Positions 4,342-13,475 of a stretch of 64,000 bases of DNA are shown here, one piece after another (the stretch's first letter is position 1; the number at the start of each line of letters is the position of its first letter). The stretch spans positions 1-64,000 of the forward strand of contig CAXUUL010000007.1 in the NCBI GenBank assembly GCA_964255285.1, in the 5' to 3' direction. A program made the position numbers and the translations under genes. The stretch comes from Ionaspis alba. Lineage: Eukaryota. The notes beneath the pieces were generated by a model. That model made no database searches. It was given only the letters and a program-made list of their open reading frames with translations, and was not told the DNA's origin.

Positions 4342-7207
4342 ATGCGTAAAGGAAATCATCTTCCCCGGCTCACGTTCGCGTCTATATCTCCCGAGATGCC
4401 ACACTCGAATGGCTCTCACCATCCATCGTTGTCCATGGACGATCAAGAGGAGGATGAAGACATACAGTCGCCCAACGGGCTATACCTACCACCAGCCTCT
4501 CCTTCTGCAACCCGAAGGCTTCACTCCGCGAGAGCGTCAGACTTGAATCTCCGGAGCCGAATGCCTTCGAGGCTGGAACTGGACGAGCGGTCAAGCTTGT
4601 TGGCTTATCCAGATGGCTTTTCAAGAAACTACACAAGCGCACCGAACACATCAAGGCCACAATATTCCAGACGGCAAAGCAGATCTGCCAGTCTGCGTCA
4701 GCCTAAGAATCATAGTCGCTCGAGCTCATGGGGTGTGAGATTGGCTTCTGCCGTCAGCTCCAACTGGGGGAGAAGGACTGATACTGGGTTGTCCGAATCG
4801 AAAGGCTCTCTATTTACAGACGAGCGTGTCTGGTACGATCAATTCACGTCCACGGACTGGGTGCACGACAGTATAGCGGACAATTTCCGTGTACGCGCAT
4901 TGAAATCTCGCAAAGACATACGGGGACGATTAATTGCATGGCTAGACGGAGCAGAAGGCTGGATATTGGTTGCCATAGTAGGATGCATCACTGCCTTTAT
5001 TGCCTATTTTGTGGATGTTACCGAGAATTCAATCTTCGACATCAAGGAGGGCTATTGTAAAGATGGCTGGTATTATAGCAAGAACAAGTGTTGCTTTGGC
5101 GGGGAGGAATGCTCGTCTTGGCGGACTTGGGGAGAAGTCATGAAATTTACCGGTCTTGCAGGAGAAACGATTGATCTCCTGGCATATACCCTCTTTGTTG
5201 TGTTGTTCTCTGTTGCAGCTTGTTGGCTTACCCTGACGACCAAAACTGTGATACCGTCCTCCTTTTCACTTTCTACGCTCGACGAGAACCTTGCAGCAGA
5301 TAGTCAGAAAACCCCGTCCGCAGAGACGACTGCGAACAAGACAGGCATGGGTCCCACTGATGCTCTGGGGGATGCCCAAAAGCCTTCTACGATGATCTAT
5401 TATCCAGCTGCTGGGAGCGGAGTCGCTGAAGTCAAGGTCATACTTAGTGGATTTGTCGTGCATGGATATTTGGGGGTGCAAACCCTGGTTATTAAGACGT
5501 TGGCATTGATCCTGAGCGTTGCTTCGGGTCTAAGTCTTGGTAAAGAAGGTCCGTTCGTGCACATAGCAACTTGCGTTGGTAACATTGCCTGCCGAATGTT
5601 CTCCAAATACAACCACAATGACGGAAAGAGGCGGGAAGTTCTCAGCGCCAGCGCTGCCAGTGGTGTTGCAGTCGCCTTTGGAGCTCCCATTGGAGGTGTG
5701 CTTTTCAGTCTCGAGGAAGTCAGCTACTATTTCCCACCAAAGACCTTGTTCAGGACCTTCTTCTGCTGCATAGCAGCTGCTCTTACACTCAAGTTCCTCA
5801 ACCCGTATGATACCAACAAGATCGTCATTTTCGAGGTCCGATATACCACCGATTGGAAGTTCTTCGAAATGGCTGTGTTTATCCTACTTGGAATCTTTGG
5901 CGGTGCGCTCGGCGCATTCTTCATTAAAGCTTCTCGAATATGGGCGCAAACCTTCCGCCGAATACCCATGATCAAGCGATGGCCGACTCTTGAAGTCATC
6001 CTGGTAGCGACAATCACAGGTCTGCTCAGTTTCTGGAATCGATATACCAAGAAGGCCGTAACGGAGCTACTTTTCGAACTGGCAAGTCCATGCGCTCAAG
6101 ACGGGACTACCGGTCTGTGTCCTCAGAATTCCGACCAAGTTTTGGAAGTCATGCGATATCTGTGCGCTGCGTTCGTGATAAAGAGCTTCCTTACCACCAT
6201 TACCTTCGGTATCAAGGTTCCGGCAGGTATCTATGTGCCATCCATGGTTGTTGGTGGTCTTCTTGGCCGGATCGTCGGTCATGCTGTCCAGTATTTGGTC
6301 CTCTCATATCCCAATTCAGTCATTTTCGGAAATTGTCCTGCGGATGGCGGCTTGGAGAGTTGCGTCACACCAGGTGTCTATGCCTTGGTGGCAGCTGGAG
6401 CGACAATGTGTGGCGTTACTCGTCTCTCTGTCACGCTTGCGGTCATCTTGTTCGAGCTTACAGGAAGTCTTGATCATGTTCTGCCGTTCTCACTATCCGT
6501 CCTAGTTGCCAAATGGACAGCCGATGCATTGGAACCTTTGAGCATTTACGTATGTTTTAAGCACATCCCTTCCTTTCTTTCTCTTGCTAACACATCTACA
6601 GGACTTATTGACGGAAATGAATTCTTATCCCTTCCTTGACAACAAAATTCGACCAGTCTTCACTTCGGAACTAGGCGATATCACTCCACGTGTGCGCAGT
6701 GAGCGAATCATCGACATCTCTTCTTCCCCATTAGTAGCAGCGTCGCACCTACGGCGCAAACTACAATTTCTCCATGATGCCGGTGAACTCGATGGCGGCC
6801 TTCCGATCGTCCGTCACGGTGTTCTTGTCGGCTTGATACCTGCGCCGGATCTCGAGTTTGCGCTCGACAAGCTCGATGATGAAAGTGAAACATTATGCCT
6901 AATGGCTACGATCAATACCTTCCACCATCCAGATGATGAGGAGGAAGAGTATGATCCCACGGATCTCACGACGTACACGGATCCGGTGAGTGTTGATGCC
7001 TGTTATTCTGGACCAGCCGCTGACTCTACTTGACAGGCTCCTGTATCACTGGATATACACTCGCCAATGGATCTCGTGTACCAATGCTTCGTCAAATTAG
7101 GCTTGCGCTATATATGTGTGCTCAGGGACGGTCAATACGCCGGCCTGGTGCACAAGAAAGCGTTCGTCAAATATATAAGAGAGCTGGAGAACAGCGAGGA
7201 GTCCTAG
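4342..7207 (+). CDS. CLC family chloride channel / Cl-:H+ exchanger with C-terminal CBS domains (introns about 6550-6601 and 6986-7037)
   Basis: GSGVAEVK, GKEGP (gating Glu), AFGAPIGGVLFSLEE and GIYVPS motifs; CBS-like tail in ORF 6584-7033 and final exon ...LVHKKAFVKY; start codon uncertain (4342 or 4396). Confidence 0.93.
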
Positions 7208-7501
7208 AGTTCTCTCTCCCCAAAACCTGTTATTATTAACCTCATCAAGTTCGAGCATCTATTCCTGCATTGCAGTGCGAGGTGGCAGAGTCCAGTATTC
7301 AGCATCATTGTTGTTTGAATATTACATTTCCATTTTCCAGTGCCAGAACACCAGCGTATGAATAACCAAAGCCCATGGGCAGGACAATAATCATTGGTAT
7401 AGATCCAAAAGGGGCTTAGACGGCTGCAGAGCCTTATATGTTAGCGCATTATCACAACCAATAATTTTGACTCTGCCGCTCGTTCCCCTGTCATATGGGA
7501 T

Positions 7502-8577
7502 TCATCTATCATTCTCAGCAGTAAGCTCTTTCATCACTCCCCCTTTATCCCTCCTCCTTGCATCCCTCTCCAAAGCCTCGTCAACCACCCTCCCCATCTC
7601 TCTCACCTTAACCGCCGCCACCTCCACACACCTTAGTAATCCCAAAGCATCAGTCGGCACACCCCCCAACTTCGCAATCTGGCAGACCTCCCCCTGCGCA
7701 TTCGCCGTCACCACCACCTCACCCTCACTAACCATGCCCTCCTTTAGCGTCGCATCCACAACAACCACCTCCCCACCCTCGAAAAAAGCCATTGTTACAC
7801 AATAGGGATAATGCAGCATTGCCAAAGGCACAGGCACTCTTTCTTCCGGCGTGTAGATTGTCACCTCCTCCCCTTGGACGCTAACATCCGGCCGGCGAAA
7901 ATGCCGCAAAGCGGCTATCACAGCAACGCAGCTGGCGTCGACAAGGCCCCCGTCATGGTCGAGCACGTGCACGTCGGCGCGTAAGGACCAGCATTTTTGG
8001 CCCGCGAGGATGCAGAGGGATTCGGTGTCGAGGGCGGAGGAGCGGCGGATGGCTTTTTCAAGTAGGCGGGAAAGGAGTGTTTCGGTTTCTGTTTGTCTGG
8101 GGGTTTAGTAAGTTTTTGGTTCGTGTGCACCGGTTGTGTGGGATTGAGGGACTGATGGAATGATGAAGAGTGGACAGGATGGGTGATGGAGATATGTTGG
8201 GGGGGTTGCTTGAGAAGGAGTGGGGAGGTGACGTACCGGCCGACTTCGAAGGCGGGGGAGGCGATGGGGGAGAGCTCGGTCGTGATGGTGAAGATGCCGT
8301 CGAATTTCCGGTCAGGAAAGGGGAGGGAAACTTCGGCGGAGATGCGGGCGAGGACTCTGAGATGGTTGGTCAGTTGGGAGTAATGGTGCTTCGTGTGAAT
8401 GAGCTTAATAGACCTCGTTCTGCCTAATCTGATGTCTGCAAGGCCGTGTTCCTCGCCAAATGTCACTTGGAGCCCGCGGAATGCATCTAGAGCTCGGCCA
8501 TCGAGGCGGGTATTCTCGAGAAGAGCTTCAAGAATGAAAGCGCGCTCGTTGAGAGATGGTTCTGCTTCTCGAGGCAT
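7502..8577 (-). CDS. RRP45: Exosome complex RNase PH-like subunit Rrp45, 3 exons (8577-8414, 8356-8237, 8096-7502)
   Basis: MPREAEPSLNERAFIL..RLDGR; ELSPIASPAFEVGR; HVLDHDGGLVDASC..ALRHFRRPDV; EVCQIAKLGG; ends ELTAENDR. Confidence 0.92.
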
Positions 8578-8783
8578 GATTATGAGCTATAGAAGAGCTC
8601 CACAGAGAGTTTCAGGACATTGTTGTGGAAAGCGCCATGATTTGTGAATATTGACTTCGCCAACGAGGGAACTTTTGTAGATAGGGCTGACATGATCGAT
8701 CGCTAGTTGGGCCAATGCCAAGCAAGGATTCCGCGAATCGAAGTGACCCTCATCCTTTGAATATCACATTCTAGCACATCGCG

Positions 8784-9857
8784 ATGACTACGGGTATGTA
8801 GCATGGCTTTCCATTGAGGGGGTCCTGACTGATAGTCGTACAGCACATCGACCTACATTTGACCCTGTTTGCCACACCCATTCACGAGAAGTAAGAAGCT
8901 GCTTGCTGACCAGCGTAGGCGCGAGGGAAAGAAGCCCTGCGGGGTCCGGCTTACCACCAGCGATTACTCCCAGCACATACACAGCTCAAAACCAGGTGAT
9001 GACCTCGGTCTTCGAAGCTTCTCAAGGCTTATTACTTGTCAGGCAACCAGGGCAAGGTGGAATAGCAGATCCTCCAGTCCGGGATCTACGAGCACAATTA
9101 CTACAAGCAGAAGCTGCTCACTTCTCGAAGACGTCTGGGAAACCTGCGGCGGATGGGGAACAATTGGACGACTCATCGGTCACATCAAAAAGAAAGATAG
9201 AAGGTCCTCGTGGTGAGGATGGAGATGTAGACGAAGACCCGGATGCCAAGAGGAGGCGGATATTGGAAGAGACTCGTGATATAGATGCGGAGTCCGATGC
9301 AGAAAGCGACAGTAGTGAGGAAGACAGGTTTGCTATCTAAGGAAATGCAAGTAGAGGATTCCTGGCGGACTAACTGTCTTCAGCGATGAGGAAGACGAGA
9401 CGGCGAGTCTGCTAAGAGAATTAGAAAAGATTAAGAGGGAACGAGCGGAGCAACGAGAGAAGGAGGAATTTGAGAAAGCTGCGGAAGAGCAGGCAAAGCG
9501 TGAACACGATATCGCCCTGGGAAATCCCTTGCTCAATCCCACCAAGGATTTTAATGTTCGACGAAGGTGAGGATAACGAACTTTTGGATACGGGCAAGGC
9601 TGATGATACTCGATGTAGGTGGGATGACGATGTAGTGTTCAAGAATCAGGCTCGGGGGACGGAGGACAAGAGGAAGAAGGAGTTCGTCAACGTAAGATAT
9701 TCCGCTGCTGAACTGCTGCCGTGTACAGCTGGACTGATAGAGGAACCAAGGATCTGCTGCGTTCGGACTTTCACAAGCGTTTCATGGTACGTACGACATC
9801 TGCGCCTTGTGCCTGGAGCACAGCTGATGTCAAGAACAGAGCAGATATGTCCGGTGA
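8784..9857 (+). CDS. CWC15: Pre-mRNA splicing factor Cwc15/Cwf15 (many short exons)
   Basis: Spliced [86 protein letters not shown]. Confidence 0.92.
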
Positions 9858-10718
9858 CCATGGTATACAGTGGTGACACCATGCTTCAGGCCTTCAAAGT
9901 GGACTGCATGCACAGCGAAGCTGGGTCCTTAGTGTTTGAATTGAAACACGCATGACATTCGTGTCACTTGTCACGGCACTGCCATAAATGAAGTATCACC
10001 GGTGCAACTCACAATGAAAGGGACTCAGAGGACTAGATTGATTACCCAGCTGATTTGATACGCCCACGACACCTTCCATGAGCCCAGACCGTCTGCGAAT
10101 ACTGCGCGCCTGCTAGCCACGAAGCAAAGAATGATCTCTGCTTGCTCCACGGTCGGCGGCTTGCCGAAATCTATCCCTGATCCGATGAAGTTAATAGCAG
10201 CGATAGGTTCCTTTAGATGCATTCAGCTAGCGAAGGACAGTGGGTCCAGCTTGGATGGTACCTGTTTGGCGATCGGTCCCACGGGCTGCAAGTCGTGCAT
10301 CACCCTGCTGTGCGATGATGTCGTCGTGGCTGTCGGAAGCGGGGTTTTCTACCATTGATTGTGGTACAGAAACCAAAGGTGCAAAGTTGCAAGCTGCTGC
10401 AACCAATAATCGAAAGCACATGCAATCGAGGGATGGTCAGCCGAAGCGATCCATACCAGACCAGATCCTGCTTCTGTGGGTTATTTGTTGACTTTGGAAG
10501 AGAGAAACTTGGCACAAGCTGGCGGGTATGACGATGGGCTAAACCTGATGGGGATCGTTCATCTGGATCCCTGTCCCAGAGCTCCATAAAGACACCCCGC
10601 CATCCACCCCACTATCCTTCCATTCTCACTCATCTGAACAAACCACATCGATTCTTCGTCACTCACAATATTCAAAGTCAATTGAACAGCTCCAGCAATC
10701 AGGCAGAATCAATTTAAA

Positions 10719-12155
10719 ATGTCCGGCTACGACGACGATAACACCGTAAGCTTTCCCATGTTTGTGACTTGCTTCCAAGACATCACTGACAGCCTCGTTG
10801 CAGCGCTCTGGCGGCTACGGAGACAGTAACACCCGTTCAAGGATGGGAGGAGATGATTCCTACGGAGTATGTGACAAGTCCTTGTCTTCCTGCCCACTGA
10901 TGCTGATATACACAGTCTGGCAACACTCGTAGTGGAATGGGGGGAGATGATAGCTATGGAGTGTGTCTTCATTCCTATCATCCTATGAAGTAATCCCAGC
11001 TCACGTCTTGAAGTCTAGCAACACCCGAAGCGGCATGGGAGGCACCGACGACTACAGCGTACGCCAATTGATATGTGAGCTTTTGTCTTAGTTTACATTG
11101 CTGACTTTTCGAAGTCGGGAAATACCCGCAGCGGTATGGGTGGCTCTGACGAGTACAGCGTGAGTCAATCGATTTAAACTATACGCCCATATGCTGACCA
11201 CTGATCCAGTCTGGCAACACTCGCAGTGGCCTGGGCGGCTCCGACGAGTACAGCGTACGTCAACGACACCTCAACCCACTTCGACGAGTCTTAGGCTAAT
11301 GCTAAGTCAGTCTGGTAACACCCGCAGTGGTTTGGGTGGAGATGATTCTTATGGCGTAAGCCAATAGTGTCACCACAGCAGGGACACAGAGGCTGATCTG
11401 GCCAGTCTGGCAACACCCGCAGCGGTCTTGGAGGGGACGACGATTCTTACGGGGTAGCTCGCCAGCACCAAGCTTGTCGAACTTTCTGATACTGACTATA
11501 TGCAGTCCAGCAACAAACGCAGTGGACTAGGTGACAGCAGCGATACCTATGGCGTATGTCTTCTTGACAGGATGTCTTATAGATCACAACGCTGACCCTA
11601 GCAGTCTAGCAATACTCGCACTGGCATGGGCGGAGATGATAGCTACGGAGTATGTTCTTCATGTGAAAATTGTGACGTGACAATGTGGAAGCTGAATACG
11701 CAGCAGTCTAGCAATACTCGCACTGGCATGGGCGGAGATGATAGCTACGGAGTTAGTGGCAAGCCCAACATCCACACTCACTCAACTAACATTCGGGGCA
11801 GTCCGGAAACACCAGTAGTGGTGTCGGCCGCAGTGGCGATCCATACTCCGGCAGTACCGAATACGGTTCCGGAACCACTGGAGGTGCTGGCTATGGCAAC
11901 AAGAGCTCCAAAGACAGCTCGTCAAAAGAAGGTCAGTTACCAGAGAGGCTAGCTTTTATACTCACATCCTAACATTGTTCAGACTCTACTGCTGGAAAGC
12001 TAATGGAGAAAGTCGGCGGCATGTTCAAGAGCGACAAAATGGAGCAGAAGGGTGCCGAGAAGCGTGCCCAAGCTGGTGCTGGATCGGGAGACTATGATGA
12101 GAGCACCTCTGCTGAGGGCTATGGCAGCCGCCGCAACGACGACGGCAACTACTAG
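10719..12155 (+). CDS. Gly/Ser/Asp/Tyr-rich tandem-repeat hydrophilin-like protein (about 267 aa), 13 exons, CsbD-like C-terminal segment
   Basis: Exons 10719-10745, 10804-10866, 10916-10960, 11014-11058, 11115-11159, 11210-11254, 11311-11355, 11406-11453, 11506-11553, 11605-11649, 11707-11751, 11802-11931, 11983-12155; all separated by 49-58 nt GT..AG introns with branch-point-like CTRAY motifs; the spliced frame is open from ATG to TAG; tail DSTAGKLMEKVGGMFKSDKMEQKGAEKR. Confidence 0.88.
10804..11751 (+). repeat. Array of 10 exon-plus-intron units (about 100 bp period), exon consensus TCT GGC AAC ACY CGC AGY GGN MTG GGN GGN GAY GAY TCN/AGC TAY GGN
   Basis: 45-48 nt semi-conserved units (first one 63 nt) separated by unique 49-57 nt spacers; units 11605-11649 and 11707-11751 are identical. 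Confidence 0.9.
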
Positions 12156-12595
12156 GAATGTTGCCTGGTGTTTGCATGTGATCGCATGACCGTTGAATGT
12201 GGATCAGTCGACGAGATGTTTAAGATACCTACCCATTGCCTGCCAAAGAGCAGTGCTACTTTCACTATAGCTATTCGATGAAAACCTTATTGGCCCGAAG
12301 TCACAAACTTGTAGAACTTCGAGCGTGATTTATTTGATTGATTGTAGGGGTCTACTTGTTGCTTTGCTACGGAAGATACCGAGCTTCACAGAACCTGTTG
12401 CTCCTCCCGTACTTTGCCGGTCAAGCACTCCAAGAGACGGGCGGGGTTCCGTTCCGCCCCGCGATAACCCTTCTTCCGTCTAGATAGTACCCCGCCATTT
12501 TTCATGTAAACACCGCAATCTTCATGTTTCTTTCCAGGCACATTCGCGTATCCTATAAAAACATCGTATCATCAGCAAGAAGCAATTCCTCCACC

Positions 12596-13475
12596 ATGAC
12601 GAAAGAACGAGGCAGACTAAGTACACAATCTTATACAAGCCCTCTCCCATCTCAATGCTGACCTTCGACATCCATAGCCAACCCGGCCCTCTTGTCCGTT
12701 TCCTCCTAAGCCTCATCCATTGTCCCGATCGCAAAGCTAATCAACTCTACACAGCATCTGCGACATCCAAGAAAAATTCCGGCCTGCAATATGGGAATAC
12801 CCAAAAGTGTATGTGGGCCCCTCCGCCACTCCATCCACACCCACCAAAGCAACCACCAATCAACTGACTAACCACATCTCCTGCATTCTAGCATCGCAAC
12901 AGCGCAAAAGATGATCAAAGCCAGTGCGTCCGTCCCTGTCCTATACACCAACCATTTCACCTCTCCTCTCCAGCTGACTCGATCACTCCTGCTCCTCCAC
13001 TACAGGCTCGCTCCTTTCAATCCCCATCCACGCTACTACACAAAAAGCCTCCGCCCTCGGCCCACTCTGCGCCGAACTTTCCCTGCCAAACGCCCAAACC
13101 CAAGGCCCAATCCATGACAAAACGCTCTTCAGCATGTACCTTCCCGCCATCGCCTCCGCCCTTCCCCCATCCAGCTCGGTAATAATAGTTGGCATCGAAG
13201 CGCACATTTGCGTATTACAAACAGCCCTGGATCTACTGGCAGCGGGACATAGGGCATATGTGCTTGCGGACGGGGTGAGTAGTTGCAACAAGGAGGAGGT
13301 GCCGGTTGCGCTGAGGAGGGTGGTGGCGGAAGGGGGCATTGTGAGCACGAGTGAGAGTGTGCTATACGAGATTATGCGGGATGCGGGGAGTGAAGGGTTT
13401 AAAGGGGTGGTGGGGTTGGTGAAAGAGAGTAAGGAGAGTACGAGGGAGGGGTTGCAGACTTTGTGTAAGATATAA
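12596..13475 (+). CDS. Isochorismatase-family hydrolase (ISOC1/2-like), 5 exons
   Basis: Spliced MTKERGRLTNPALFICDIQEKFRPAIWEYPKV..HDKTLFSM..IVGIEAHICVLQTALDLL..YVLADGVSSCN..STSESVLYE. Confidence 0.88.

What the first reader, a model, noticed from the sequence alone, without database searches (positions are those of the whole stretch)
10719..12155. Hidden 13-exon gene: one protein repeat per phase-0 microexon
Seen: a region with almost no ORF signal resolves into an open spliced CDS. After MSGYDDDNT come ten repeat exons: RSGGYGDSNTRSRMGGDDSYG, SGNTRSGMGGDDSYG, SSNTRSGMGGTDDYS, SGNTRSGMGGSDEYS, SGNTRSGLGGSDEYS, SGNTRSGLGGDDSYG, SGNTRSGLGGDDDSYG, SSNKRSGLGDSSDTYG and SSNTRTGMGGDDSYG twice. The first 11 introns are all phase 0 and 49-58 nt long. 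Inference: any subset of repeat exons could be skipped, duplicated or deleted without a frameshift, making a modular cassette for tuning repeat number by splicing or unequal crossover. The logic resembles schistosome micro-exon genes and is unusual for an ascomycete. Automated annotation is likely to miss or break this gene.
Basis: partly seen in the sequence, partly recalled or inferred. Interest (0 to 1): 0.85.

Follow-up and report, generated by a model that had tools for sequence, protein, structure and literature searches.

The report
Repeat-per-exon DDR48-like stress gene
A real 13-exon gene of a lichen-type fungus encodes a floppy, acidic stress-type protein in which each of ten short repeats sits on its own small exon; relatives build the same gene family the same way, by copying exon-plus-intron units.

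Summary
The first 11 introns are phase 0. Exons 2-11 each encode one repeat of 15-21 residues.

It is a real gene. An independent splice-and-composition model recovers 12 introns. Repeat exons show pN/pS 0.21 in the proposed frame. The product aligns end to end with homologues. Flanking genes are syntenic with related loci.

The family is the Pezizomycotina "stress protein DDR48"-type: a disordered Gly/Ser/Asp/Tyr repeat region plus a conserved C-terminal two-helix motif.

The architecture is not unique to this window. Relatives also place phase-0 introns right after ...SYG. Close relatives differ by whole exon+intron units with near-identical introns. One relative has matching spliced transcripts.

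So exon+intron tandem duplication and unequal recombination are supported. Regulated exon skipping is untested. The schistosome analogy is only formal. In this window the array is old, with introns diverged nearly to background. No RNA run was listed for this organism.

The parts
10719..12155 (+). Whole coding region of the DDR48-like gene: 13 exons, 267 codons plus stop
   Evidence: End-to-end protein alignment with homologues.
10719..10745 (+). Exon 1, 27 nt, MSGYDDDNT. This is the family-type N-terminus.
   Evidence: The same kind of start (MSNYDDDNT..., MSSYDDD...) occurs in L001 and P0024.
10746..10803 (+). Intron 1, 58 nt, phase 0, GTAAGC...CTGAC...CAG
10804..10866 (+). Exon 2, 63 nt, 21-residue first repeat
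10867..10915 (+). Intron 2, 49 nt, phase 0
10916..10960 (+). Exon 3, 45 nt, SGNTRSGMGGDDSYG
10961..11013 (+). Intron 3, 53 nt, phase 0, GTGTGT donor. It has only a near-consensus branch motif.
11014..11058 (+). Exon 4, 45 nt, one repeat
11059..11114 (+). Intron 4, 56 nt, phase 0. Its ends still resemble those of introns 3, 5 and 6.
   Evidence: family D4: 76% and 68% identity over 74 nt spanning exon and intron flanks.
11115..11159 (+). Exon 5, 45 nt, one repeat
11160..11209 (+). Intron 5, 50 nt, phase 0
11210..11254 (+). Exon 6, 45 nt, one repeat
11255..11310 (+). Intron 6, 56 nt, phase 0
11311..11355 (+). Exon 7, 45 nt, one repeat
11356..11405 (+). Intron 7, 50 nt, phase 0
11406..11453 (+). 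Exon 8, 48 nt, one repeat
11454..11505 (+). Intron 8, 52 nt, phase 0, weak donor GTAGCT. My model preferred a GC donor 3 nt downstream, also phase 0.
11506..11553 (+). Exon 9, 48 nt, the most divergent repeat
11554..11604 (+). Intron 9, 51 nt, phase 0, ends in TAGCAG
11605..11649 (+). Exon 10, 45 nt, identical in DNA to exon 11
11650..11706 (+). Intron 10, 57 nt, phase 0. It has no in-frame stop and ends in CAGCAG.
11707..11751 (+). Exon 11, 45 nt, identical to exon 10. The exact 52-nt tract 11702-11753 equals 11600-11651, while the flanking introns are unrelated.
   Evidence: record 5 at double depth; family D1.
11752..11801 (+). Intron 11, 50 nt, phase 0
11802..11931 (+). Exon 12, 130 nt, carrying the ...YGSGTTGGAGYGNKSS... 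unit shared with homologues
11932..11982 (+). Intron 12, 51 nt, phase 1. L001-L006 have an intron at the same codon position.
   Evidence: P0001 carries a 20-residue insertion exactly here.
11983..12155 (+). Exon 13, 173 nt including the stop. It holds the conserved 34-residue C-terminal motif (11985-12086) and an acidic tail ending in Y.
   Evidence: Helix-turn-helix in the model of a relative.

Best explanation
This is an intact gene, most likely constitutively spliced, in a lichen-type (Lecanoromycete-like) ascomycete. It is the positional orthologue of the Pezizomycotina family that databases sometimes call 'stress protein DDR48'.

The product is 267 aa, 26.8 kDa, pI 4.4 and GRAVY -1.34. 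It is an acidic, Gly/Ser/Asp/Tyr-rich protein, inferred to be intrinsically disordered, that ends in a short conserved two-helix motif.

The ten repeat exons arose by tandem duplication of a unit made of one small phase-0 exon plus its intron. That unit already exists at the N-terminal end of the gene across the family. In this lineage the copies are old. Synonymous sites are saturated and the introns have drifted almost to background, while the peptide repeat is held by purifying selection. One recent short gene conversion made exons 10 and 11 identical.

Inferred, not shown: the short introns are each recognised on their own (intron definition), so all exons are normally included. Each repeat exon 3-11 contributes exactly one Tyr and one Arg plus 2-3 acidic residues, so exon number sets the number of weak interaction sites. 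The protein would act as a protective or condensate-forming stress protein during drying or oxidative stress.
For: Gene model and coding frame:
- establish the model and the frame.

Homology:
- The last exon matches P0001 at E 7e-16.
- A search with homologue P0005 returned 79 proteins from lichen fungi and Dothideomycetes.
- The spliced product aligns over residues 1-262 with P0025 and 1-247 with P0054.
- A profile of the C-terminal motif finds 256 cluster representatives at E<=1e-3 and 65 at E<=1e-10 among 1.84 billion proteins.
- One of these, P0206, is 'stress protein ddr48' of Colletotrichum plurivorum, with SGNNDSYG repeats and the same C-terminal motif.

Orthology:
- The upstream genes for an RNase PH-type protein and Cwf15/Cwc15 lie beside the homologue on the same side and strand in L001, L003-L006, L023, L029, L031 and L052.

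Taxon:
- Every named hit among the 120 listed for the neighbouring CLC channel is a lichen-forming fungus; the best are 79-82% identical. That these are Lecanoromycetes is my own knowledge of the names.

Exon+intron duplication:
- Residual similarity runs into intron flanks for exons 4-6 (family D4).
- In L001, exons 4 and 5 are 96% identical and their downstream introns 94% identical. In L004, exons 3 and 4 are 93% identical and their introns 100% identical.
- Unit counts differ among genomes that are 96-99.5% identical.

Splicing of this family is real:
- L055 and L056 match genomic L070 and L069 in 5-6 blocks at 99.5-100% identity with 57-62 nt removed.
- My models of L070 and L069 equal the ORFs of L055 and L056 exactly.

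Age and selection:
- Mean exon identity is 71% and mean intron identity 54.7%, against 52.6 +/- 0.7% for shuffled introns.
- pN/pS is 0.21.

Disorder and C-terminal helices:
- In an AlphaFold2 model of a full-length relative (29-sequence alignment), residues 11-202 have pLDDT below 50 and no secondary structure. Helices span 207-219 and 222-237, where the 10-residue block means of pLDDT are 66-84.

Composition:
-.

Fungal splicing:
- Two papers say fungi mainly retain introns rather than skip exons: PMC3925392 (passages read) and PMC12861292 (passages read).
Against: - No RNA run of this organism was available, so none of the 12 junctions is observed directly.
- The intron 8 donor is weak, and introns 3 and 10 lack a clean branch motif.
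- The window's own C-terminal motif does not match Pfam CsbD at E<=1, and nothing matches in the PDB.
- No STRE or heat-shock element lies in the 918 nt upstream.
- The window repeat is a 15-residue unit, not the canonical DDR48 octapeptide, and has only 6 SYG motifs against 6-45 in the published family table.
- Function rests on family names and on papers about distant relatives.
- The gene models of related loci are my own predictions. They are validated by transcripts at only two loci. Six models were dropped for implausible tiny exons.
Confidence: 0.78

Rival explanations
1. Splicing cassette. The symmetric exons are skipped in regulated combinations, giving a ladder of isoforms with 0-10 repeats.
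For: - All of exons 2-11 are multiples of 3 and are flanked by phase-0 introns.
- An EST survey lists DDR48 homologues of Coccidioides immitis, Ajellomyces capsulatus, Cryptococcus neoformans and Mycosphaerella graminicola among alternatively spliced genes. The event type is not given in the text or in supplement file 2 that I could read.
- Transcript L056 lacks one 165-nt exon relative to L055.
Against: - L056 matches a genomic variant, L069, that lacks the same exon plus one adjacent intron (224 nt). No skipping is needed to explain it.
- Introns of 49-58 nt fit intron definition, where failures give retention rather than skipping (passages in PMC3925392 and PMC12861292).
- No isoform data exist for this organism.
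Confidence: 0.1
2. The array in this species is still actively expanding and contracting by unequal crossover, so strains differ in exon number.
For: - Unit-number differences occur between close relatives in two clades.
- Exons 10 and 11 are identical over 52 nt.
Against: - Apart from that tract, DNA homology between units is limited to 45-nt islands averaging 71% identity, with unrelated introns. This is poor substrate for recombination.
- Contigs of two DNA runs (organisms A and B) show no insertion, deletion or joint where they cover the gene. X2 leaves 3 of 30 bins uncovered.
Confidence: 0.2
3. The introns were gained independently at the same spot in each repeat, for example by a mobile introner-like element, rather than copied with the exons.
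For: The window's introns are barely more alike than shuffled sequence.
Against: - No intron has another copy anywhere in the 64-kb window beyond 11-12-nt chance matches.
- Flank similarity extends from the exons into the introns (family D4).
- Relatives show whole exon+intron units copied together, with introns 94-100% identical.
Confidence: 0.04
4. This is a chance pattern or a dead relic, not a functioning gene.
For: No expression data exist for this organism. There is no Pfam hit.
Against: - The frame is open through 13 exons, and all 12 introns are GT..AG.
- pN/pS is 0.21 in frame against 1.55 out of frame.
- The product aligns end to end with homologues, and the locus is syntenic.
Confidence: 0.03

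Closest known systems
Fungal DDR48 / Cprp family of SYG-repeat stress proteins (S. cerevisiae and C. albicans DDR48, Histoplasma DDR48, Clitopilus Cprp; PMC10512284, sections 5 and 9 read; preprint 10.1101/2020.10.25.354308, passages read)
   Same: - Repeats end in D-S-Y-G.
- The protein is rich in Ser, Gly, Asp and Asn, strongly hydrophilic, and predicted disordered.
- Family members carry the DDR48 name (P0029, P0206).
- P0206 combines canonical SGNNDSYG repeats with the same C-terminal motif as the window protein.
   Different: - The unit here is 15-16 residues (S-G/S-N-T-R-S-G-M/L-G-G-D-D-S-Y-G) rather than the octapeptide.
- There are only 6 SYG motifs.
- Every repeat has its own exon, whereas Cprp is reported with three introns.
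- None of the passages I read describes the C-terminal GKLMEK motif.
- Similarity to yeast DDR48 itself was not tested here.
Schistosome micro-exon genes (features recalled, not checked in a call)
   Same: A run of symmetric exons, each a multiple of 3 nt, so exon number can change without a frameshift.
   Different: - Exons here are 45-63 nt, not 6-36 nt.
- The N-terminus is hydrophilic with no signal-peptide-like stretch (read).
- The exons are repeats of one another.
- No exon-skipping variants are known.
Animal repeat proteins built from duplicated exon+intron units, such as the 54-bp exons of fibrillar collagens or the titin PEVK exons (recalled)
   Same: One peptide repeat per symmetric exon. 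Growth is by tandem duplication of exon plus intron. Exon sequence is kept while introns drift.
   Different: Here the host is a fungus, the introns are about 50 nt and likely intron-defined, the units are far smaller, and the product is a stress-type disordered protein.
CsbD-like domain, Pfam PF05532
   Same: The C-terminal G-K-x-x-E-K-x-G-x...K-G-x-x-K-R motif gives weak CsbD matches in 15 of 51 family members, best E 0.005. One homologue is named CsbD-like by UniRef.
   Different: All matches are far below the 40-bit cutoff. The window's own motif gives none at E<=1. The motif covers about 30 of the 53 profile positions.
FUS-type low-complexity [G/S]Y[G/S] domains (compared with DDR48 in PMC10512284, section 9)
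   Same: Regularly spaced Tyr in a Gly/Ser-rich disordered chain. Each repeat exon 3-11 carries one Tyr and one Arg.
   Different: No sequence homology was shown. This protein is strongly acidic, and condensate formation is pure inference.

Membership tests
DDR48 / Cprp-like fungal stress proteins | Many copies of a core [G/S]-Y-[G/S] motif, mostly S-Y-G (PMC10512284, section 9) | tested here: met
   There are 6 SYG and 9 [GS]Y[GS] motifs in 267 aa. This is at the low end of the 6-45 SYG in that paper's table.
DDR48 / Cprp-like fungal stress proteins | The octapeptide repeat S-N-N-(N/D)-D-S-Y-G (Histoplasma preprint) | tested here: not met
   The window unit has 15-16 residues. Only the S-x-N start and the D-D-S-Y-G end are shared. 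P0206, which has the same C-terminal motif, does carry SGNNDSYG.
DDR48 / Cprp-like fungal stress proteins | Enriched in Ser, Asn, Asp and Gly, with negative GRAVY and predicted disorder | tested here: met
   G 24.3%, S 20.6%, D 11.6%, N 5.6%, GRAVY -1.34. A relative's repeat region has pLDDT below 50 and no secondary structure.
DDR48 / Cprp-like fungal stress proteins | Significant sequence similarity to S. cerevisiae DDR48 | not tested
The link rests on database names for P0029 and P0206.
DDR48 / Cprp-like fungal stress proteins | Induced by stress | not testable with these tools
   No RNA holder was listed.
Pezizomycotina subfamily with the C-terminal S-T-x-G-K-L-M-E-K...K-G-x-x-K-R motif (defined here) | The 34-residue C-terminal motif, an MS-x-Y acidic N-terminus, SYG-type repeats between them, and a tail ending in Y | tested here: met
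   There are 11 invariant columns in 51 sequences including the window. 256 representatives match at E<=1e-3.
CsbD-like (PF05532) | A profile match at or above the Pfam gathering score of 40 bits | tested here: not met
   The window motif has no match at E<=1. Fifteen of 51 relatives match at E<=1, best 0.005.
Schistosome-type micro-exon genes | Symmetric exons that are multiples of 3 nt | tested here: met
   Exons 2-11 are 63, 45 or 48 nt and are flanked by phase-0 introns.
Schistosome-type micro-exon genes | Exons of about 6-36 nt and a secreted product with a signal peptide (recalled definition) | tested here: not met
   Exons are 45-63 nt. The N-terminus MSGYDDDNT... is acidic with no hydrophobic stretch. 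No signal-peptide program was run.
Schistosome-type micro-exon genes | Protein variation produced by exon skipping | not testable with these tools
   No RNA runs were available.
Tandem exon+intron duplication arrays | Exon and intron are copied as one unit, and unit number varies among relatives | tested here: met
   Relatives. Window: residual similarity in intron flanks (family D4) and slightly raised intron identity of 54.7% against 52.6 +/- 0.7%.
Hydrophilins (recalled criterion: Gly above 6% and high hydrophilicity) | Glycine content and hydrophilicity | tested here: met
   Gly 24.3% and GRAVY -1.34. The criterion itself is recalled, not read.

The most novel reading that the evidence does not exclude
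The intron between every repeat is not an accident of history but is what makes the array possible.

Freely drifting introns, together with saturated synonymous sites, cut DNA homology into 45-nt islands. Tandem Repeats Finder sees no repeat at all. This would let the fungus keep ten near-identical peptide modules without the slippage, unequal exchange or repeat-directed mutation that would erode a plain coding repeat.

Each exon adds exactly one Tyr-Arg pair. Exon count would then set the valency, and so the condensation threshold, of a drying-induced protective protein. Lineages would tune it in whole-exon steps.
Probability: 0.15. Interest if true: 0.7.

Novelty: new variant of a known kind. 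Interest (0 to 1): 0.45.

Why it matters
The finding gives a clean fungal example of a protein built in whole-exon steps. One small symmetric exon equals one repeat, and the process can be seen at three stages:
- fresh copies with identical introns in one clade of relatives;
- copy-number differences between near-identical genomes;
- an old, selection-held array of ten units in this window.

It also flags a widespread family that gene callers mostly return as fragments. The family has 256 cluster representatives and is frequent in lichen fungi and black yeasts. Among the best 150 models the median length is 85 aa. Surveys of stress proteins in drought-tolerant fungi probably undercount it.

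My literature searches found no description of a repeat-per-exon layout in an ascomycete. [quoted passage not shown]

Tried and rejected
- Tandem Repeats Finder on 10000-13000 gave 0 rows. Diverged introns explain this. The repeat finder with short seeds does show the 10 copies.
- RNA evidence: no RNA holder was listed. The two runs laid are DNA contigs that contain the introns, so they say nothing about splicing. X2 leaves 3 of 30 bins uncovered.
- Pfam on exons 12 and 13 gave no family at E<=1.
- A PDB profile search with the C-terminal motif gave 0 matches at E<=10.
- The ESM Atlas with P0054 gave only leads scoring 0.83-0.88, one of them a 'CsbD-like' cluster.
- Rfam on 10300-12500 at E<=1 gave nothing. 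The introns are too short to host snoRNAs anyway.
- Promoter motifs: there is no AGGGG/CCCCT, heat-shock element or TATA box in the 918 nt upstream.
- tblastn of all fetched homologues against the window gave 99 hits, all inside the gene, so there is no paralogue in the 64 kb.
- My first crude reading of tblastn segments suggested that relatives keep the repeats in long exons. This was wrong. Several of their introns are multiples of 3 and stay in frame, as reading L001 showed.
- Literature: searches for repeat-per-exon or tandem exon duplication in fungi gave nothing relevant. None of the 12 papers listed for DDR48 with lichen or desiccation terms contains the word DDR48.
- The supplement of PMC3925392 lists the spliced DDR48 homologues but not the event type. 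Its file 1 could not be searched.
- No fold search was run on the model, because a 31-residue helical hairpin would match almost anything.
Full report
1. Observation

The region reads as the first stage said. Splicing the 12 proposed introns gives an open 804-nt CDS from ATG 10719 to the stop ending at 12155.
- Exons are 27, 63, 45, 45, 45, 45, 45, 48, 48, 45, 45, 130 and 173 nt.
- Introns are 58, 49, 53, 56, 50, 56, 50, 52, 51, 57, 50 and 51 nt.
- The first 11 introns are phase 0 and the last is phase 1.
- The ten repeat peptides are exactly as quoted.
- All introns are GT..AG, and ten carry a YTRAY branch-like motif.
- Weak points are the GTAGCT donor of intron 8 and the near-consensus branch sites of introns 3 and 10.

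2. It is not chance

- The repeat finder shows ten copies at 95-102-nt spacing. Tandem Repeats Finder finds nothing.
- A dynamic-programming model of my own uses only family amino-acid composition and generic splice signals. It picks ATG 10719 and 12 introns.
- Pooled over the 15 pairs among the six 45-nt exons compared (3, 4, 5, 6, 7, 10), pS is 0.74 and pN is 0.16, a ratio of 0.21. In the +1 frame the ratio is 1.55. So the peptides are selected in that frame and the copies are old.

3. What the gene is

- The last exon finds P0001 at 82% identity and E 7e-16. P0001 is a 118-aa model that carries a 20-residue insertion exactly at the last intron.
- A search with homologue P0005 returned 79 proteins from lichen-forming fungi (Endocarpon and many genome bins of Caloplaca/Xanthoria-type lichens) and Dothideomycetes (Aureobasidium, Hortaea, Cryomyces). 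One is named 'Stress protein DDR48' and one 'CsbD-like'.
- The spliced product aligns end to end with P0025, P0054 and P0024.
- A 34-residue C-terminal motif has 11 invariant columns in 51 sequences. Its profile finds 256 cluster representatives at E<=1e-3 and 65 at E<=1e-10 in 1.84 billion proteins.
- One of these, P0206, is 'stress protein ddr48' of Colletotrichum plurivorum. It joins canonical SGNNDSYG repeats to the same motif.
- The published DDR48/Cprp family is defined by SYG repeats, Ser/Asn/Asp/Gly richness and disorder (PMC10512284, sections 5 and 9). The octapeptide definition comes from the Histoplasma preprint (passages).
- The window protein is 26.8 kDa, pI 4.42, GRAVY -1.34, Gly 24%, Ser 21% and Asp 12%. 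It has no Cys, His, Ile or Trp, and it has 6 SYG motifs.
- An AlphaFold2 model of a full-length relative (the L002 ORF, with 29 aligned sequences) has pLDDT below 50 and no secondary structure over residues 11-202. Two helices, 207-219 and 222-237, cover the motif, where the 10-residue block means of pLDDT are 66-84.
- Pfam CsbD matches are weak: 15 of 51 members at E<=1, best 0.005, and none for the window. The PDB gives nothing.

4. Context

- Upstream lie a CLC channel (4342-6639), an RNase PH-type exosome gene (7502-8577, minus strand) and Cwf15/Cwc15 (8903-9955).
- The RNase PH and Cwc15 genes flank the homologue on the same side and strand in L001, L003-L006, L023, L029, L031 and L052. 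The window gene is therefore the positional orthologue.
- Every named hit among the 120 listed for the CLC channel is a lichen-forming fungus; the best are Xylographa (81-82%), Lepraria (81%) and Lecanora (79%). I take these to be Lecanoromycetes from my own knowledge of the names.

5. The architecture in relatives

A metagenome scan gave 80 loci. My model was run on all of them, and 79 gave a model.

Validation:
- The models of L070 and L069 equal the ORFs of contigs L055 and L056 exactly.
- L055 and L056 match those genomic loci in 5-6 blocks at 99.5-100% identity with 57-62 nt removed. They are spliced transcripts.

Counts:
- 37 models have no intron. Many are short contigs.
- After removing identical proteins and dropping six models with implausibly tiny exons (L014, L018, L021, L032, L034, L051), 30 distinct intron-bearing models remain.
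- These hold 99 predicted introns. Seventy are phase 0, and 53 lie directly after a Y-G/S codon pair.

Examples:
- L001 has exons of 42, 75, 75, 75, 75, 117, 48, 208 and 128 nt.
- L037 has exons of 33, 36, 33, 48, 30, 30 and 468 nt, with introns of 82-91 nt.
- L023 has exons of 24, 27, 60, 48 and 738 nt.

So an intron after ...SYG is a family habit. The window, with ten such introns, is the extreme among the loci examined.

6. How the array grows

- In L001, exons 4 and 5 are 96% identical and their downstream introns 94% identical. In L004, exons 3 and 4 are 93% identical and their introns 100% identical.
- L003 has three 75-nt repeat exons. L001 and L006 have four, with following-intron lengths 54, 51, 54 and 54. 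L004 and L005 have four, with 54, 51, 51 and 54. This fits two independent gains of different units in genomes 96-97% identical.
- The long exon also varies in 42-nt steps: 208, 166 and 124 nt.
- L069 lacks a 224-nt unit (one 165-nt exon plus one adjacent intron) relative to L070, at 99.5% identity. Each form has its own transcript.
- In the window, by contrast, exons average 71% identity and introns 54.7%, against 52.6 +/- 0.7% for shuffled introns. Only traces of similarity run into intron flanks (family D4).
- The exception is the exact 52-nt tract shared by exons 10 and 11 between unrelated introns. This is best read as a short gene conversion.
- No intron has another copy in the window.

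7. Splicing cassette or not

The arithmetic allows any subset of exons 2-11 to be dropped. There is no RNA for this organism, so this was not tested.
- Passages in two papers state that fungi mostly retain introns rather than skip exons, and tie this to intron definition (PMC3925392; PMC12861292). [quoted passage not shown]
- PMC3925392 does list DDR48 homologues of four fungi among alternatively spliced genes. It gives no event type in what I could read.
- If introns are retained, ten of the eleven phase-0 introns would break the frame or meet a stop. Only intron 10 (57 nt) is open in frame.

8. Mechanism, with its status

Shown:
- the gene model's internal consistency;
- selection on the repeats;
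- family membership by motif and synteny;
- exon+intron co-duplication and copy-number change in relatives;
- real splicing in one relative.

Inferred:
- constitutive inclusion of all exons;
- disorder of this particular protein;
- a protective or condensate-forming role in stress;
- the reading that each exon adds one Tyr-Arg pair of interaction sites. The count of one Tyr and one Arg in each of exons 3-11 is read directly.

9. Novelty

The protein family is known by name. The principle of one repeat per symmetric exon is known from animal genes (recalled). My searches found no such case described for an ascomycete. I rate it a new variant of a known kind, of moderate interest.

Noticed in passing
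window 11248-11395: In run X1 the contig graph splits into two versions at about equal depth (59.5 and 49.9). They differ at 5 sites: 11278, 11290, 11316, 11346 and 11365. Two haplotypes or genotypes are present in that sample.
   Followed up: no
window 4342-9955: A conserved gene neighbourhood lies upstream: a CLC chloride channel, an RNase PH-type exosome subunit (minus strand) and the Cwf15/Cwc15 splicing factor. In six of the 79 listed hits (for example P0013 and P0025) the DDR48-like protein also carries the Med22 family PF06179, which looks like a fusion with a neighbouring Med22 gene. No Med22 match was found in the window at E<=1e-3.
   Followed up: partly
L001 3677-3729 and the same intron in L003, L004, L006: My models, which penalise GC donors, still place a GC-AG intron (donor GCAAGT) after the 48-nt exon in L001, L003, L004 and L006.
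   Followed up: no
window 11599-11604 and 11701-11706: Introns 9 and 10 end in tandem acceptors (TAGCAG and CAGCAG). Use of the upstream AG would add one Gln in frame.
   Followed up: no
window 11626-11952: The only long plain ORF inside the gene (108 aa) starts at a Met codon inside exon 10. It runs on through intron 10, which has no in-frame stop. A caller that ignores introns would report this false protein.
   Followed up: partly
P0081: A 1259-aa protein annotated from the insect Homalodisca vitripennis scores E 5e-15 against the C-terminal motif profile, with 5 matched stretches. This could be low-complexity noise or a fungal contaminant. It was not examined.
   Followed up: no
L045/L060, L057/L062, L072/L076: Pairs of intron-free contigs at 91-99% identity align with shifted offsets in the repeat region. 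This implies in-frame repeat-number differences of roughly 45-177 nt. Repeat-count variation therefore seems common in the family.
   Followed up: partly
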